From assembly GCF_009834535.1 (NCBI RefSeq), contig NC_045696.1:16494001-16558000 (forward strand): DNA of 64,000 bases. The letters are read 5' to 3'. Below are positions 17,707 through 29,829 of this stretch, piece by piece (positions within the stretch are counted from its first letter, which is position 1; every line of letters begins with the position of its first letter). The position numbers and the translations under genes were made by a program. The stretch is from Camelus ferus (taxonomy: Eukaryota). The notes under the pieces are model-generated. The model saw nothing but the letters and a program-made list of their open reading frames with translations, was not told the origin of the DNA and did no database searches.

Positions 17707-17811
17707 AAATTATTTATTTACTTATTAATGGAGGGACTGGGGATTGAACCCAGGACCTCATGCATGCTCAGCACGCGCTCTACCACTGAGTTACTACTGC
17801 CCCCCACCCCC
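17707..17811 (-). mobile_element. tRNA-derived SINE (camelid Vic-1-like)
   Basis: Minus strand has A box (AACTCAGTGGTAGAGC), B box (GGTTCAATCC) and an A-rich tail. Confidence 0.85.
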
Positions 17812-18215
17812 AATTTTTAACTACAAAGGCTCTAGAAATTCATTTCAGAATGTATTTAGTCCATGTTTCTTCCAGTTGAATTATTAAACGTGTTTATGAA
17901 CAGTTATAACGAACAAACCATAACTCTGAATTTAAATGACACGAATACATTTTCCATTAAAGAGAAATACACAGATGTGGGCTTGGGGGGTTAAAGTAAA
18001 AATGTTTGCAGTCAGGTTACTGCTGATAAATCTTTTAAATGACCTGACTCTGAAAACTTAATTTAAGGTGGAACATCTCAGTGACCAGATGATGATTAAC
18101 AAAAAGTAATAAAGCCTGGAGTCTAAGTTTGTCCAGCAGGGTGACTCATGGCACTCTGTCACCCTCCCACGGCAGCGGTTTGTTCCACGTGAATGCTAGT
18201 AACAGGCATCATATC

Positions 18216-18279
18216 CTGCTAATGCTAACATGTAGGAGTCAGTCGGAGTAAAAACCCCTATCACGATTAGCATTAACAG
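18216..18279 (-). ncRNA. MIR155: pre-miR-155 hairpin; 5p at 18254-18276, 3p at 18217-18238
   Basis: Minus strand contains TTAATGCTAATCGTGATAGGGGT (canonical miR-155-5p) and the complementary arm CTCCTACATGTTAGCATTAGCA. Confidence 0.99.
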
Positions 18280-18330
18280 CATACGGCCTACAGCAAGCCG
18301 CCAGCACTCGGAGGATGAGGCATAAAGAAT

Positions 18331-21300
18331 TTAAACCACAGATTTCCCCTTCCTGGTTTGTGCCACCTGCAAGAGAGAGAGAGAGGGTTGTGTACGCACA
18401 TGCAGTTGTCAAGTTGGAGTGACAGAATATAAATATGCAAGCAAAAAGAGTCCATGTATTTTTTAAAGAAAAGAGCTCATGAAATGCTAGGAAGTCATTT
18501 GTTGAAAAGGCTAGAGAAATTGGCAATTAAAACTTTTTACCTTTAAGTGTATTTGAAGACTACTTTAGAATTTATGTTTTAAATTCTGTTCTGTAGTTGT
18601 GAATTACTTACACATACGTATCATCTTCTTTAAAACAAAACCAAAACCACTCATCAGAGTCCCCAAATGCTAAGATGCAGAGGGCAGACCCTGAGTTCTG
18701 ACGCCGTTCTGTCTTTTCTGGTTTAGATCTCACCTGGGAACTAGGCAATTTAAGTAAAAGGCCAAAATATTAACAAGAGTAGTTTGTTTTTGATGAAAAT
18801 TAAAACTGAACTGTTTTACAAAGGTAGAGTTCAAGCTAGACTTTTATTCTGTAATAAATAGTTGCGGCTTTATCTTTATTTATAACTTATTTTTTCCAGG
18901 AGATATGATACAGTCCGTGGGGGTCTTCCCTACAAATGACTCCGTCATAGAACAGCGCCAACTTCTATTTAGAGATTCCTTTGGGGAAAGCACTAGCCAG
19001 TAGCTTTGGTTTTGACCCACGTAAAGGAAGCAGGACTTAAAAGAGTGCTGGGTTTCAAACTACTTGTCTTCGGCACAGTGGATTAAAAAAAGAAAAAGAT
19101 GAATTTGCTACTTCCTGTTACAGTCTGATTTTACTCTCTCAGATAAAGTGACATTTCTCCCACAAGCTTCTGGTTTCGGTGTTACTACAGCAGAACCTCG
19201 AAGTTAGACTACCATTCAAGTATGTGGTCTCCCCTAGTGCAAAAGGGGAATCACCTTCTCTTTTATTTAATCCTGAAACCAGCTAGATGTAAAACTGTGA
19301 TTAAGTTCAAAAGAAGTGTATAAAGTTAAAAATTCCCCAGTGAATATATTTTGACAGGGCAGAATATCGTGGTTTGGAAATTTCCAAACCAAGGAAATTT
19401 ATCATTCTTACTGACAGTAACTTTTTTCTTTAACCTTACTGTTTGCTGAGATGAATTAGTTTAATGATGAAGAGCTTTGAATTAAATGATGTCAATTCAG
19501 GATTTTAGTTTTTTTTTTTTTTTACAGATTTTCAGTCAATATTGTTAAAAAAAAGAAAGGACTTTAAACCCCCCTCCACAGAGTCTTGGACACAGTAAAT
19601 GCTCAAGAAATATATGTTAGTATCCTAATGTTAGTTCAGCCAGTATAATTCAGCCTTCTCTTAAAGAGCTGTGTCTAATTCGTATTTAAGGTGAAGTGCT
19701 TGCATACTGTTCTATCTATAAATTTTACTTCTGTTCTTTAAAGGTGACATCTGAGTACAGGTATTAAAAGAAATATATTTAGTATAATAATTAGATTTTT
19801 TCCTCTTTCATCTTTCTTTCGCAAATTGCCCAGAGTGCTCAGAAAAATGACAAATGTTTTTCACAATGTGCTATACTATATTAAAAATTCTAACAGCTTT
19901 TATTTTTTTGTACTGGTGCAAACACTAGAGGGATGCTGAAATAAAAGCATCGCACGGGTCCCCTTTTTGATGCTCAGACAGGAACTGTGGTTCTGTGTTA
20001 ATCTAGACCAACTTCTCAGGCACGATGCAGTCCTTAAACCACACGGAATAAGCAGTTTGTCTAAATACGTGACACAATCTTGCATCTCATCTAAAACACA
20101 GTGAGGGATGAAAAACATTCATCCCAATAAATAAAAGAGAAAATATCCCGGAATAGTATTTTAAAAAGTATAGTCAGTAGACTTGTAGATATTAGAATGA
20201 CCACAAGGTCACCCACCCACCAGCACGGAAGCTGTGCTCACTTTCAATGTTTTTGCCTGGGTTTTCGCAAGGAAGACTCAAGCTAACCAGCGACGGAGCT
20301 GCTGTGTGTCTGAGTGGAAATCAGAAATCACAGACAAGAAAGGCTGGTCTATGAGCCAAGGCACTGGGCACAGGATGATGTCATGAGGTAGCAACAAAAT
20401 GAAGTGGTTTCTGGGATCAGTACAGCCACCCTGCTGGTGGAGTGGCAGAAGACGAGTTACATACGATTACAGACCCAGCAATCAACAGCGGCGGCTGCTA
20501 ACCATTTGATGAGACAGTAACAAGTGTGATGTGTGATGCATAGCAATGCCGAGAAACTGATGTGGGTTGTACACTACGAGTCAGAGTGAGGGTCTTGTCT
20601 CGGGTAGTTCTAGAGACACACCTCCATTCCTCCCTTCATGCCATGATGCTTTTAGCCCCACAGCATGACAAGACCATTGTGAATGTAAGCTTTACTACAG
20701 CCATGGTTCTTTTCAGTAGCTGGTTCCAAGTTCAATGTAGTACTTGGCAGAATTTATTACTCAGTAATTGTCAAAACCATTCCTTCTTATCTTGAATAAA
20801 AATCTACCAAATCTAGATATACTAGATAAAGAACAAGGATAGATATCTTTCATCAGATGGTAGATCTCGTCTGCCCCTGGTAGTGAGAACTAAACTGAGG
20901 GCGGCACTCTGGGAAAATTTTTCTTAAACGATGCTTTTCTGAAGGATGATTTCTTTTTTTTGGAAGAGGGGGCCATATGATTTCAATATATCCTTTTATT
21001 CTTACCTTGTCGATTTGCCAGGAAAGATCTTACCAGCTACATAGTCAGAGCAGAATACGTCTTACGTTTGTCACTAACGATCTCTTCAAAGATGAGTCCT
21101 AAGTTCTATCCTTCCGCAATTTTATATATTTCTGTATTTTCTTATTTTCCTACTTATTCTCAGCACTGACCACTTACATTTGCATACCAAAAGAACTGCA
21201 TGCCATAAAGTTATCTTTAAAAAGAAGAGTCACAATGACTGACTTTCACAGCCAAGCCATCATGGAGACAGCCCCGACTTTATTCACCATGATAGTTTAA

Positions 21301-21899
21301 ATATTTGGAAACTATTAATTTGTTGTTACAAAGTGAATGTGCACCTCTTTCTACTGGAAGTCATGATTTCATACAGATGTAGCCATATGAATTCTAGCTC
21401 CAAAGCCATTTTAATACGTGAAAAGTAATTATGCTTTTGAAAATTAAAATGATTAAGTTTAGATAGCTTCCTTCAAATATTTCCCTATTTTTACTTAATT
21501 TTCTTACGTACCAGTTAGAGACACAATCATTAGAATGGGACTGAATGTTGATTCCTCTTTGGACCTGTTCCCTGAAAGTGATCAGCATCTAATTGCGTAA
21601 GAAAGCAGTTTCTGACCTTCCCGCTGGAACTTACTAACTCCCTGTGTTCTGAAGTTGCTGTATTTATTTAGATCATACAACTAAGCAGTGGAGATGAATG
21701 AAAGATGTAAAAACCAAGATCCTGAGAAAGTTTGTACCTATCATAGTTCATCTTGGAAGAACAATTTCTTGATCACCTTTTGACCTAGGGTGCCTGCAAA
21801 CATGATGTCCCCAAGGACCTGCCCCTCTAAAAGTTCTGCCTCTGTCTTAATGCTTCCCTTCCCTTCAACTTAGTCTGAATTTCTTACCATCAGAACCAT
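18331..21899 (-). CDS. Putative miPEP155/P155-like micropeptide [15 protein letters not shown] (spliced 21899-21888 + 18366-18331)
   Basis: In-frame ORF across the exon 2/3 junction. Its last 12 residues match recalled human [17 protein letters not shown]. Translation is not shown by sequence alone. Confidence 0.5.
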
Positions 21900-21968
21900 C
21901 TCCTTTGGGTGGGAGAACCAAGGTGACAGGTAAAGGTTTCAGGTAAACTGTTCTTGAAATGCACATTA
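21888..21968 (-). ncRNA. MIR155HG: MIR155HG exon 2 (5' boundary uncertain, 21968-21973)
   Basis: TGCATTTCAAGAACA...TACCTGTCACCTTGGTTCTCCCACCCAAAGGAGATGGTTCTGATG resembles recalled human exon 2. It has a strong ATG|GTAAGA donor and an upstream pyrimidine tract. Confidence 0.78.
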
Positions 21969-26343: not shown

Positions 26344-29300
26344 GTGTTAATTTGAGGATAGATATGCTTTTGGGGTAGTTTTGCTCGAGGCCCTGAGTAT
26401 TGTATGCCCAAAGACAGGACTGATGGACAGAGTGTATATGTTCCATGATCAAATTAAAAATGCTGCATCTCCTTAAGAGTCTGAAGTAACATAATACATA
26501 CTAGAAACAGGTAGTCAAAAGGTGAGATAGAGAGGCTTTTAAAATTTTAATATTTTTCCCTTGAGAAATAATGTTTCACTGTTTTCTTATTCTATCCGAT
26601 TTCAGTTGACATGTGACAGTTTTGACACCAGTGAGATCAGTGAAAGACAAACATACATTCTCTAGTCAATGGCACTGGTACTTACTTACTCTGACCCTCT
26701 TTGGACACAGAGGATATGAATTCACTGAGTCCAACTCTGTCTTAGGAGATATCTAAAAAGTGAAGTGGCAGTCATGCTGGAATCATAGAATTTCATCAGT
26801 TTAAGAGACTTTAGAAATGACTCAGTCCCAGCCACCCATTTTAGAGATGAGAAGAATGAGGCGCAGGAATCGGCACAGAGCTGGGACTTAGAAACCTGCC
26901 GTGGTTCCCAGGCTGGTGCTCTTTCCACAATACCAGGCTTCTGCACTGTGGACTGAATGCCTAACATCAAAGCAATAAAGATATTAAAATCAATAGCTTC
27001 AGCTAAGCAAGAGCCACTGACTTCACAAAATTGTAGCGATGCCAGCTAGTTAAAGACAGAGGTGCTCAATCCAGGTGCAAAGTAGAGTCCACCCACCAGT
27101 CTCCACCGTTCTACTAGGTTTAGAATAGAGATTATGAAACTATACCCTCAGGTGGATCATGGTGGAGATTCAAGGAAGCCTGGAGCCTGCTGACAATGGA
27201 CGCAAAATTGTGTGTGAGCATGCCATGTGCTTTAAAAAAAATTTCTGGGAAGAGGATCCATAACCTCTATTAGATTTGAGACAGGAAAAAAGTTAAGATC
27301 TATTCCTTTAATATGAAAAACCTCTTTTAAATTTAATGGTAAATCTTAGTCATGACATAAAATAGATGATGAAAAAACTTTTCAAAAGTTAAAACCCAGG
27401 GCTTTTGGGGGTGGATTTTTTGATTCACAGAAGCCTGACTTGATGAGATAAGCAGAAAGATGGTTATTAATTTTCCATGTTTGGGACTGGAAAGTAAAGA
27501 ATGACAAACTTCTCAGCACATTCTAACCAGGTTAAGTATTTACGTTACTGAAATGATCTCAAATTGCACAGCAATGTGCTGTTCGTCTTTTCTAACTTTA
27601 AGATTCATGAGGGTAGGGCTGTGCCTGTCTCGCCCACTTCTGTCCCCTCTCCAGCATCTAACGTGGTGTCAGGCACAGGTAGCTGGCCGATGACCCTCCC
27701 ATAGAGAGCAGGGCAATCAAGGAATTTTTTTTTTAAAAACCAAGAAGGTATACCTTTTTATATATGGTTCGTTACATAAAACCAAGAGTAGACATTTGTA
27801 CCAATGCCACTGTTCTGCCTAGAAACAGTGCAGGTCTCAGCCAGTGCTTGTGTTTCTCTTTCTTAATATGTATGGTGAGGATGCTTGGTCCTGTGGCCAG
27901 GGGGAGCTGACCCACCGTGTGAGGGAACTCGGTTATTATGGACCATTACCGAGTAGTCTGTGCCACAGAAGTAATTACTAAATGTGCTGTGGTCCCCTGA
28001 AAGAAGTCAGGGAGGCAGCAAGTGTAATGGACAGAAGCCTAAACAGAGAGTCAAAAGGCTCCCAAATGCAACGCTGCCCCAGTATCCCCCATCCCACATC
28101 AAGACCTAAAAGCAGGCTTTACCCTAACGACCTGCTGACCTTACCAGAGAAAACATAAATTCGCTGAGTCCTCATGGGCAAAATGGGGACACCACCACCT
28201 ACCCTGCCAACTTCCTATGATTGTGACTATCAAACTGGACAATACTTGGGAAATTGCCCTGACAAATTTATAGCTCATATTACTGTTCACATAGATAAGC
28301 AATTATATACTTTATACATATCTATTTTTAAAAACTCAGTCCTATGATTATCAAAAGTTCAGCTGCCCTAGTCATTTAGATGATACACAATGTTAAAGCC
28401 ATACAACAGAGGCCCTACTTCTGAGAGATGAATGGAGATACAGAGTAATTTCAGCATTATGTGATTTTCTGCATAATGTCCTGTGGAAAGTATATCTCCA
28501 TTTGACCTCATCTATTTGACACAAACTATAATTTATGAGCGTCTTTAGACACTGCTGGCTTCTTCAAATCACGTGGGATCCTGGAGCCACTGTGTGATGT
28601 TGGAAAAGTAACTTCACCTCTCTGGTCCTCAGTGCTCTCAGTTTTAAGGATTGGATTCTGACTTATACCTTTGTCAGCTGTCAACGTCTGTAATTCCTGG
28701 TTAAATTTTATTCACAATCATCCCAATATGCCTACTTTAGCTGACAGGAAATTCAAAAGACCTGGTCCACCCTGGAGAGGTGTAAAATATGGAGGGCTCA
28801 CATACACGGGGGGAGTTTTGTGGGAATGAGAAAAGCTAACCATGTGCTACGCCAAAGTGCACTCTGGCACAATGGGAGCAAATAAAAACAGAATCTCACG
28901 GAACGTCTGCTCAGTCCTCACGTCTATTAACCAAAGACATTGATATCTAAGACGTTGATTCTAACTTCTATAAAATGAAGGTGTATTAATAGTTATTTTT
29001 CAAAAGAAAATCGAAAAGGCTCATATCTTGAAGGCAGTGCCTTTTGATCCAATCCACGCTGGCCCTCAAGAGTGTTCTGCACACTTGTCGGGCCATTCCT
29101 AAAATTAGCTAAGCTCACTCAGGGCCACGTCCCAGGTACCCCTCCTACCAACTAAAGGAACTTTGCGGAGAAGCCGAGGGCCCGGTCTTTAGCACCCCTC
29201 CTTCCCCACCAAGAATCCACCCCGAGCGACCCGTTGACCGGCGGGGGGGAGGGGGGGAGGTCCCGCGGACGGCGCCCCTCCGACGGGCGCTGGGCGGCCA

Positions 29301-29422
29301 CGTGCGAGCCGCCCCCGCCCCCGGCGCCCGGCGTCCGGCGTGGGGACCCGGGAACCGCCGCCCGCCCGCCCGCCCTCCCGCCGCGTCCCGGTGCGTCCAA
29401 GCGGAGGGCAGAGTGGCCGTAC

Positions 29423-29550
29423 CTTCCTTCCTTCCTTCCCCGCGTCGCGTGATCGCCGCTGGGCTCGGCGCGCCGCCCGCGTCCCGGGGCTGGAGGCGGC
29501 CCGACGGGACCGCCGCGCTGCGCCGCGGCTCGGCCGCGCACAGGAAGCCC
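29423..29550 (-). ncRNA. MIR155HG: MIR155HG exon 1 (non-coding; TSS approximate)
   Basis: GC-rich sequence starting about 25 nt below the TATA box and ending in an AAG|GTACGG donor. It contains no ATG. Confidence 0.8.
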
Positions 29551-29594
29551 GCGCCTGCGAACGTGCGACCCTTTTATAACCCACTTGTGACTCA
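29541..29594 (-). promoter_or_regulatory. MIR155HG core promoter: AP-1 (29588-29594), TATA box (29572-29578), ETS (29541-29547)
   Basis: Minus strand reads TGAGTCAcaagtgggtTATAAAAgggtcgcacgttcgcaggcgcgggCTTCCTG. The AP-1 site upstream of the TATA box is the established inducible element of the BIC promoter. Confidence 0.9.
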
Positions 29595-29731
29595 TAACCG
29601 ACCAGGCGCCTTTTCTGTAACACCCCCCCCCAACCCCGCCTCACCCCCCTCCGGCCTGTTCTTGGAACCTACGGCTTGAAAAACTTTTTTTCTTTTTAAA
29701 GGAAAAGTCGAAAAAGCCCAGCGCAGGATTG

Positions 29732-29742
29732 GTGTTTTCCCC
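29732..29742 (-). promoter_or_regulatory. Candidate NF-kB site about 190 bp upstream of the TSS
   Basis: GGGGAAAACAC on the minus strand, at a position similar to a recalled proximal kB site of human MIR155HG. Confidence 0.45.
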
Positions 29743-29762
29743 TTTCCCTTTCTCGTGGGTCA

Positions 29763-29784
29763 GTGTGTGTGTGTGTATGTGTGT

Positions 29785-29829
<45 letters not shown>
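29763..29829. repeat. (GT)n microsatellite with two AT interruptions
   Basis: Seen directly; about 33 dinucleotide units. Confidence 0.98.

What the first reader, a model, noticed from the sequence alone, without database searches (positions are those of the whole stretch)
18331..21905. miPEP155 orthologue retained as a 15-aa peptide from the second ATG
Seen: joining exon 2 to exon 3 gives AAG GAG ATG GTT CTG ATG|GTG GCA CAA ACC AGG AAG GGG AAA TCT GTG GTT TAA, i.e. [15 protein letters not shown]. The ATG has a strong Kozak context (G at -3, G at +4). Recalled: the human MIR155HG micropeptide is [17 protein letters not shown], so its first ATG is AAG here and the last 12 residues are identical. 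Inference: the conserved unit may be the shorter 15- or 12-aa form. The ORF is invisible to the ORF track because it is short and spliced.
Basis: partly seen in the sequence, partly recalled or inferred. Interest (0 to 1): 0.7.

Follow-up and report, generated by a model that had tools for sequence, protein, structure and literature searches.

The report
Camelid version of the miPEP155 mini-ORF
The miR-155 host gene of this camelid keeps the tiny reading frame that gives the 17-residue peptide miPEP155 in humans, but it starts two codons later, and the data cannot yet show whether evolution preserves the peptide or the RNA.

Summary
On the minus strand the window carries MIR155HG/BIC: a TATA/AP-1 promoter, the mir-155 hairpin at 18216-18279 (Rfam 84 bits), and a split 15-codon ORF. 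Exon 2 ends ...AAG GAG ATG GTT CTG ATG|gtaaga. Exon 3 begins cag|GTG...GTT TAA. The window's peptide matches human residues 3-17 at 14 of 15 positions and the last 12 at 12 of 12.

The start two codons downstream is not new. A published alignment shows K-E-M in marmoset and tarsier, so human Met1 looks like a catarrhine gain and 15 residues the older form. No single ATG is shared by all 10 species. All 10 keep the stop.

ORF length is not beyond chance (P about 0.4). Against published human oligos, the exon-3 half shows 0 of 33 nucleotide differences, versus 14 of 110 elsewhere in exon 3. With no synonymous changes, codon structure cannot be tested. In a more distant vertebrate contig the stop is lost, yet nucleotide conservation runs on through it.

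Verdict: a new member of a known kind, of modest interest.

The parts
21888..21899 (-). Exon-2 half of the ORF: ATG GTT CTG ATG (M V L M). The ATG at 21899-21897 corresponds to human Met3 and the ATG at 21890-21888 to human Met6. The splice donor gtaaga follows at 21887.
21900..21905 (-). AAG GAG, the codons at the place of human Met1-Glu2. There is no ATG here.
   Evidence: human primer compared by eye
21939..21941 (-). In-frame TGA 13 codons upstream of the ATG. It limits any upstream extension from a non-AUG start.
21888..21952 (-). Candidate exon 2. The acceptor is ambiguous: the first exon base could be 21968, 21952 or 21947. The 21968 model adds an upstream out-of-frame ATG at 21965-21963 that opens a 68-codon ORF.
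   Evidence: motif reading only, no RNA evidence
18367..21887 (-). Inferred intron 2 (gtaaga ... ctctctctcttgcag).
   Evidence: inferred from splice motifs and from the human geometry
18331..18366 (-). Exon-3 half of the ORF, 11 codons [11 protein letters not shown] plus TAA (18333-18331). It contains a 12-purine run, AGGAAGGGGAAA.
   Evidence: 0 of 33 differences from published human oligos
18280..18330 (-). 51-nt spacer between the stop codon and the hairpin, 77% identical to the distant vertebrate contig L001.
18216..18279 (-). mir-155 precursor hairpin.
   Evidence: RF00731, 84.1 bits, E 4.7e-18
29423..29594 (-). Promoter and candidate non-coding exon 1: AP-1 site TGAGTCA at 29594-29588, TATAAAA at 29578-29572, donor GGAAG|gtacgg with last exon base 29423. 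There is no ATG between the TATA box and the donor.
   Evidence: human promoter ChIP primers match by eye (20 of 20 and 21 of 22)

Best explanation
This is the camelid MIR155HG (BIC) gene, and the flagged ORF is the positional orthologue of the human miPEP155/P155 small ORF. It is intact as a 15-codon frame that starts at the ATG equivalent to human Met3. That K-E-M start is the older state, and the human 17-residue form is a two-residue N-terminal extension gained on the catarrhine branch by an AAG-to-ATG change. In spliced transcripts that escape Drosha and reach the cytoplasm, scanning ribosomes would most likely start at this ATG. It is the first AUG in two of three exon-2 models and sits in a strong context. 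They would make [15 protein letters not shown] and stop 36 nt into the last exon. The perfect conservation of the exon-3 half is most economically explained by constraint on the RNA itself. That would be a purine-rich element just inside the exon-3 acceptor together with the extended pri-miR-155 flank, with the reading frame carried along. Shown: the sequence, the orthology, the start-codon pattern and the nucleotide identity. Inferred: splicing, translation and the reason for the conservation.
For: Locus identity: the mir-155 hairpin scores 84 bits, a TATA/AP-1 promoter sits in a CpG island, published human promoter primers match, and the stretch is single-copy in the assembly. ORF geometry equals the human one described by Niu 2020, with 18 nt in exon 2, 33 nt in exon 3 and a position just upstream of pre-miR-155. 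Peptide: 14 of 15 residues identical to human residues 3-17. Start-codon pattern across 9 published species plus this window: Met1 in 6 of 10, Met3 in 9 of 10, Met6 in 9 of 10, stop in 10 of 10. First-AUG status and context. Human translation evidence: an EGFP knock-in, an antibody and LC-MS; ribosome-profiling marks and a reporter with mutated ATGs; a translon detected in stimulated T cells. RNA-level constraint: human and window differ at 0 of 33 nt in the exon-3 half, including all 8.67 synonymous sites, whereas the exon-2 half of the same ORF differs at 3 of 17 (p=0.035). Against L001 the ORF part is the least conserved segment (43%, with gaps). The spacer is 77%, the hairpin 91% and the 3' flank 64%. 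The stop reads TCA there, and the conserved block runs straight through it. A 446-bp human cassette beginning at exon-3 nucleotide 1 gave more pre-miR-155 and mature miR-155 than a 112-bp cassette.
Against: Between human and window, the exon-3 ORF part is better conserved than the hairpin-proximal flanks (0 of 33 versus 7 of 70, one-sided p=0.06) and than all other compared exon-3 stretches (14 of 110, p=0.021). A plain pri-miRNA-flank gradient does not predict this, and it would fit extra constraint from coding. All 10 mammals keep the stop and at least one in-frame ATG. The compared human stretches are primer sites, which are a non-random sample, and they were compared by eye. The cassette experiment does not isolate the 33 nt. 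No covariation test was possible with two sequences. The taxon of L001 was not determined.
Confidence: 0.55

Rival explanations
1. A 15-residue (or 12-residue) miPEP155 is a functional immunomodulatory peptide kept by purifying selection across placental mammals. It would act as in humans, by binding the ATPase domain of HSC70 and damping MHC class II antigen presentation. The conservation of the exon-3 half is then chiefly coding constraint.
For: Residues 6-17 are identical to human at 12 of 12, and the stop and an in-frame ATG are kept in 10 of 10 species. The exon-3 ORF part is a local conservation peak, 0 of 33 versus 14 of 110 (p=0.021). The ATG is the first AUG in a strong context in 2 of 3 exon models. 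Endogenous human peptide has been detected and binds HSC70; it also binds mouse HSC70, which is 99.85% identical. Ribosome footprints are reported in human cells.
Against: There is no synonymous variation from which to show codon structure; P(0 synonymous differences) is 0.07-0.33 even if those sites were free. The N-terminal six positions vary at five of six across species, and the start codon moves. Tarsier changes RKGK to NKEK, and mouse has A-to-L and S-to-C. Niu 2020 states that the coding sequence was not found in mouse. In the more distant contig L001 the nucleotides persist without the stop. The functional data in print that I saw rest largely on added synthetic peptide.
Confidence: 0.28
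2. The ORF is incidental in this animal and gives no peptide to speak of. Either exon 2 is skipped or spliced differently, or the real acceptor at 21968 places an out-of-frame upstream AUG (68-codon ORF) ahead of it, or nearly all transcripts are cut by Drosha in the nucleus.
For: Three AG acceptors lie within 21 nt, and the one just downstream of the pyrimidine-rich stretch visible (21968) brings in the ATG at 21965-21963. ORF length itself is what chance gives (P about 0.40). No RNA evidence could be obtained.
Against: The donor ATG|gtaaga and the acceptor (ct)n-tgcag|G flanking intron 2 look strong. The human orthologue with the same geometry is spliced, partly cytoplasmic and translated. 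Niu 2020 describes the human ORF as the 5'-most ORF.
Confidence: 0.12

Closest known systems
Human miPEP155 / P155 (MIR155HG small ORF; Niu et al. 2020, PMC7314557; Prel et al. 2021, PMC8038077)
   Same: Same host gene. Same split across the exon 2/3 junction and same position just upstream of pre-miR-155. Identical last 12 residues and an identical 33-nt exon-3 coding stretch.
   Different: The codon of human Met1 is AAG here, so the longest AUG-started product is 15 residues, not 17. Ala4 is Val (GCT/GTT) and Leu5 uses CTG instead of CTA (compared by eye). There is no translation or binding evidence for this species.
Marmoset and tarsier forms in Prel et al. 2021, supplementary Figure S2 ([34 protein letters not shown])
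   Same: The same K-E-M beginning, that is, no Met1 and a start at the Met3 position.
   Different: Marmoset lacks Met6 and tarsier has two changes in the basic motif. The window keeps Met6 and the human C-terminal sequence. It is a non-primate; earlier scan notes call it a camelid.
Mouse form in the same figure (EELVLMVLQTRKGKCVV*)
   Same: V-L-M at positions 4-6 and a stop at the same place.
   Different: Mouse has neither Met1 nor Met3, so only 12 codons are possible, and it has two replacements in the exon-3 half. Niu 2020 says the coding sequence was not found in mouse.
Extended pri-miR-155 flanks used in miR-155-based expression cassettes (Wheatley et al. 2011, PMC3064671)
   Same: Their longer cassette starts at exon-3 nucleotide 1, so it contains the whole exon-3 half of the ORF. 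It produced more pre-miR-155 and mature miR-155 than a 112-bp core.
   Different: That experiment changes both flanks at once and says nothing about the 33 nt alone or about splicing.

Membership tests
miPEP155 / P155 orthologue | Lies in MIR155HG, on the same strand as pre-miR-155 and just upstream of it | tested here: met
   The Rfam mir-155 hit at 18216-18279 on the minus strand scores 84 bits. The ORF stop lies 51 nt upstream. A TATA/AP-1 promoter lies 11 kb upstream on the same strand.
miPEP155 / P155 orthologue | ORF split by intron 2: end of exon 2 plus the first 33 nt of exon 3, then the stop | tested here: met
   The sequence geometry and splice motifs fit and match the human description. 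This is a test of the DNA only.
miPEP155 / P155 orthologue | Exons 2 and 3 are actually joined in RNA | not testable with these tools
No processed copy exists in the assembly that would record the junction.
miPEP155 / P155 orthologue | Peptide sequence matches the published one | tested here: met
   14 of 15 residues are identical to human residues 3-17, and 12 of 12 at the C-terminal end.
miPEP155 / P155 orthologue | 17 residues starting at Met1 | tested here: not met
   Codon 1 is AAG. The same holds for marmoset and tarsier in print, so this feature defines the catarrhine form, not the family.
miPEP155 / P155 orthologue | Translated (footprints, reporter, mass spectrometry) and binds HSC70 | not testable with these tools
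   The evidence is for human only.
Non-coding constraint element (splicing enhancer / extended pri-miR-155 flank) | Nucleotide conservation that ignores the frame and continues past the stop codon | tested here: met
   Window versus L001: the stop TAA reads TCA, gaps fall in the ORF part, and the spacer after the stop (77%) is better conserved than the ORF part (43%).
Non-coding constraint element (splicing enhancer / extended pri-miR-155 flank) | Conserved base pairing supported by covariation | tested here: inconclusive
   The single-sequence fold pairs the ORF part with the distal 3' flank. The two-sequence consensus fold does not keep that pairing, and two sequences cannot test it.
Non-coding constraint element (splicing enhancer / extended pri-miR-155 flank) | Removing or recoding the 33 nt changes splicing or miR-155 output | not testable with these tools
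   There is only an indirect published hint: the long cassette outperformed the short one.

The most novel reading that the evidence does not exclude
The first 33 nt of MIR155HG exon 3 are a dual-use element kept unchanged since the common ancestor of primates and camelids. They encode the C-terminal 11 residues of an ancestral 15-residue HSC70-binding peptide. As a purine-rich RNA element, they also help decide whether a transcript is spliced and exported for translation or cut by Drosha for miR-155. The human 17-residue form is then a recent catarrhine extension, and the 15-residue form is the one to study.
Probability: 0.15. Interest if true: 0.6.

Novelty: new member of a known kind. Interest (0 to 1): 0.3.

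Why it matters
miPEP155 is proposed in print as an anti-inflammatory peptide made from the same transcript as the pro-inflammatory miR-155. Which form is ancestral, and whether the peptide or the RNA is under selection, decides how far the human findings can be carried to other mammals. It also bears on whether mouse, which lacks both upstream ATGs, is a fair model. This window adds a non-primate, non-rodent data point that places the K-E-M start outside primates. It also shows why amino-acid identity next to a microRNA hairpin is weak evidence for a functional peptide.

Tried and rejected

2. Orthologues.
- Earlier-findings look-up for look-alike stretches found 0 windows.
- A scan for the mature miR-155 word found 2 metagenome contigs, 0 in genome contigs and 0 in viral contigs.
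- L001 has only about 415 nt upstream of the miRNA, so its upstream exon is not visible.
- L002 shows no similarity in the ORF part.

3. Retrocopy. A search of the window's own assembly for a processed copy that would record the splice junction found only the locus itself.

4. Niu 2020 supplement. The figure and table with the nucleotide sequences are pictures without text.

5. Literature.
- MIR155HG plus PhyloCSF gave 17 papers, of which I saw only the listing.
- BIC/chicken/ORF terms gave 48 papers. I saw the listing and opened two, which gave nothing on ORF conservation.
- Mir155hg plus Ribo-seq, sORF and mouse gave 34 papers, listing only.
- A short exon-2 motif search returned only a promoter primer.

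6. Structure. The fold of the extended pri-miRNA and the two-sequence consensus fold are too few sequences to count for or against.

7. Chance. I rejected ORF length as evidence.
Full report
**What is there.** The feature lies on the minus strand.
- Rfam places the mir-155 precursor at 18216-18279 (84.1 bits, E 4.7e-18).
- Upstream on the same strand, exon 3 begins after ...ctctctctcttgcag at 18366. It reads GTG GCA CAA ACC AGG AAG GGG AAA TCT GTG GTT TAA, which translates to [11 protein letters not shown].
- About 3.5 kb further upstream, 21905..21888 reads AAG GAG ATG GTT CTG ATG and is followed by gtaaga. It translates to KEMVLM.
- A CpG island at about 29000-29800 holds TGAGTCA (29594-29588), TATAAAA (29578-29572) and a donor GGAAG|gtacgg (last exon base 29423). 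There is no ATG between the TATA box and the donor.
- ChIP primers that a paper places in the human miR-155HG promoter match this stretch by eye, at 20 of 20 and 21 of 22 letters.
- The stretch is single-copy in the 2.09-Gb assembly.
- Earlier scan notes on the same genome call it a camelid. I did not check that.

**Is it more than chance?** The length is not.
- With this base composition an ATG is followed by at least 14 sense codons with P about 0.40.
- 13 of 31 ATG-started ORFs in the modelled spliced transcript are at least 15 codons.
- An in-frame TGA lies 13 codons upstream of the ATG.

What is not chance is the match to the human product.
- The window's [15 protein letters not shown] equals human residues 3-17 at 14 of 15 positions and residues 6-17 at 12 of 12.
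- Niu et al. 2020 describe the human ORF as the last 18 bp of exon 2 plus the first 33 bp of exon 3, 55 bp before pre-miR-155 (passages). Here the stop is 51 nt before the Rfam hairpin.

**The start codon.** Prel's Figure S2 lists nine species.
- Human, chimpanzee, gorilla, macaque and baboon are identical.
- Orangutan is MEMAVM...
- Marmoset is [17 protein letters not shown].
- Tarsier is [17 protein letters not shown].
- Mouse is EELVLMVLQTRKGKCVV*.

Counts with this window added:

| Feature | Species with it (of 10) | Exceptions |
|---|---|---|
| Met1 | 6, all catarrhines | K in marmoset, tarsier and the window; E in mouse |
| Met3 | 9 | absent in mouse |
| Met6 | 9 | absent in marmoset |
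| Stop | 10 | none |

By parsimony K-E-M is the older state, and human Met1 is a one-base gain on the catarrhine stem. However, the K-E-M form was already in print for two primates, and no single ATG is universal. [quoted passage not shown] **Codon structure.** I could not fetch other mammalian DNA. Collection scans gave two non-mammal-like contigs and nothing else. Published human oligos allowed a limited nucleotide comparison, done by eye. The oligos are in Wheatley et al. 2011, Table 1 and in Prel's qPCR primers.

| Stretch compared (human vs window) | Differences |
|---|---|
| Exon-3 half of the ORF | 0 of 33 |
| Exon-2 half (ORF nt 2-18) | 3 of 17 |
| 30 nt just 5' of and into the hairpin | 3 of 30 |
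| 40 nt on the 3' side | 4 of 40 |
| Two distal exon-3 primer sites | 7 of 40 |

- The three exon-2 differences are the lost or gained start, GCT/GTT (Ala to Val) and CTA/CTG (silent).
- By Fisher tests the exon-3 ORF half is better conserved than the exon-2 half (p=0.035) and than the other 110 exon-3 letters (14 differences; one-sided p=0.021). Against the proximal flanks alone it is not clearly so (7 of 70; p=0.06).
- The 11 codons hold 8.67 synonymous sites. With 13-30% divergence, 1.1-2.6 silent differences would be expected, and finding none has P 0.07-0.33.
- The data therefore show a local peak of nucleotide conservation but no codon signature either way.
- Caveats: primer sites are a non-random sample, and one oligo (Odp.1572) is printed one base shorter than Odp.1584 over the same stretch.

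**A deeper comparison.** Contig L001 (unnamed, taxon not determined) has the hairpin, an acceptor (ttttttttag|GT) and the flanks.
- Identity to the window is 43% in the ORF part (19 identical, 3 mismatched, 22 gap columns), 77% in the 51-nt spacer, 91% in the hairpin and 64% in the 3' flank.
- The window's TAA reads TCA in L001.
- A block made of the purine tract (AAGGGG..AAA) followed by GTGGTTT.A.TTCTTTATG.CTCAT.CTCC continues across the stop without a break.
- In that lineage the nucleotides are kept and the ORF end is not, which is what RNA-level constraint predicts.
- Wheatley et al. report that a 446-bp cassette starting at exon-3 nucleotide 1 gave more pre-miR-155 and mature miR-155 than a 112-bp core. 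That experiment does not isolate the 33 nt.
- The single-sequence fold pairs the ORF part with the distal 3' flank. With two sequences, nothing can be said about covariation.

**Will it be translated here?** This is inferred, not shown.
- The intron-2 donor and acceptor look strong.
- The exon-2 acceptor is ambiguous, with AGs giving first exon bases 21968, 21952 or 21947. With the last two, the ATG at 21899-21897 is the first AUG of the transcript. With 21968, an out-of-frame ATG at 21965-21963 comes first and opens a 68-codon frame.
- In human cells the orthologous ORF shows ribosome-profiling marks, its reporter depends on its ATGs, it is detected as a translon in stimulated T cells at 240 min, and the peptide was found by antibody and LC-MS.
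- The stop lies in the last exon. From general knowledge of nonsense-mediated decay, translation would not be expected to mark the RNA for decay.
- RNA evidence for this animal could not be obtained.

**Verdict.** The shorter-form idea is reasonable but partly already visible in print. The claim that a peptide is the conserved unit is open and leans towards RNA-level constraint. My odds are 0.55 for RNA constraint with the frame carried along, 0.28 for a selected peptide and 0.12 for no meaningful translation here. This is a new member of a known kind, and interest is modest.

**Print status.** The searches I ran found the C-terminal 11-residue string in the main text of 1 paper and the name miPEP155 in 41 papers. 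I did not see a camelid or other non-primate, non-rodent form in what I read. Supplements I could not read as text, such as the Niu figure and table, may hold more.

Noticed in passing
window 17729-17800 (minus strand): A tRNA-like stretch (Rfam tRNA, 29.7 bits, just above the gathering score) lies inside the 3' part of the presumed exon 3. It looks like a tRNA-derived SINE. From memory, this type is common in camelids.
   Followed up: no
window 29763-29829: A long (CA)n microsatellite lies about 190 nt upstream of the TATA box of the MIR155HG promoter, and a GGAA repeat lies right at the exon-1 donor (29423-29440).
   Followed up: no
window 21963-21965 (minus strand): An out-of-frame ATG lies just inside the most upstream candidate acceptor of exon 2. 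If that acceptor is used, it opens a 68-codon frame running through the hairpin and would come before the miPEP155-like ATG.
   Followed up: partly
window 18130-18366 (minus strand): The minimum-energy fold pairs the exon-3 ORF part (CCAGG..AGGGGA..GUGGU) with the distal 3' flank some 200 nt downstream, extending the pri-miR-155 stem (-93 kcal/mol, z -4.3 for the whole stretch). This is a single-sequence prediction only.
   Followed up: partly
L002 1184-1206 and flanks: A second unnamed metagenome contig carries a mir-155-like hairpin preceded by an acceptor-like cctgcag. Its upstream flank shows no similarity to the ORF part or the spacer of the window.
   Followed up: partly
literature: Two papers disagree on mouse. 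[quoted passage not shown] Prel 2021 Figure S2 prints a mouse line with a stop at the same place and one in-frame Met, which gives 12 codons.
   Followed up: no
literature: In Wheatley 2011 Table 1, oligo Odp.1572 is printed one base shorter than Odp.1584 over the same start of human exon 3. Odp.1584 and Prel's reverse primer agree with each other and with the window.
   Followed up: no
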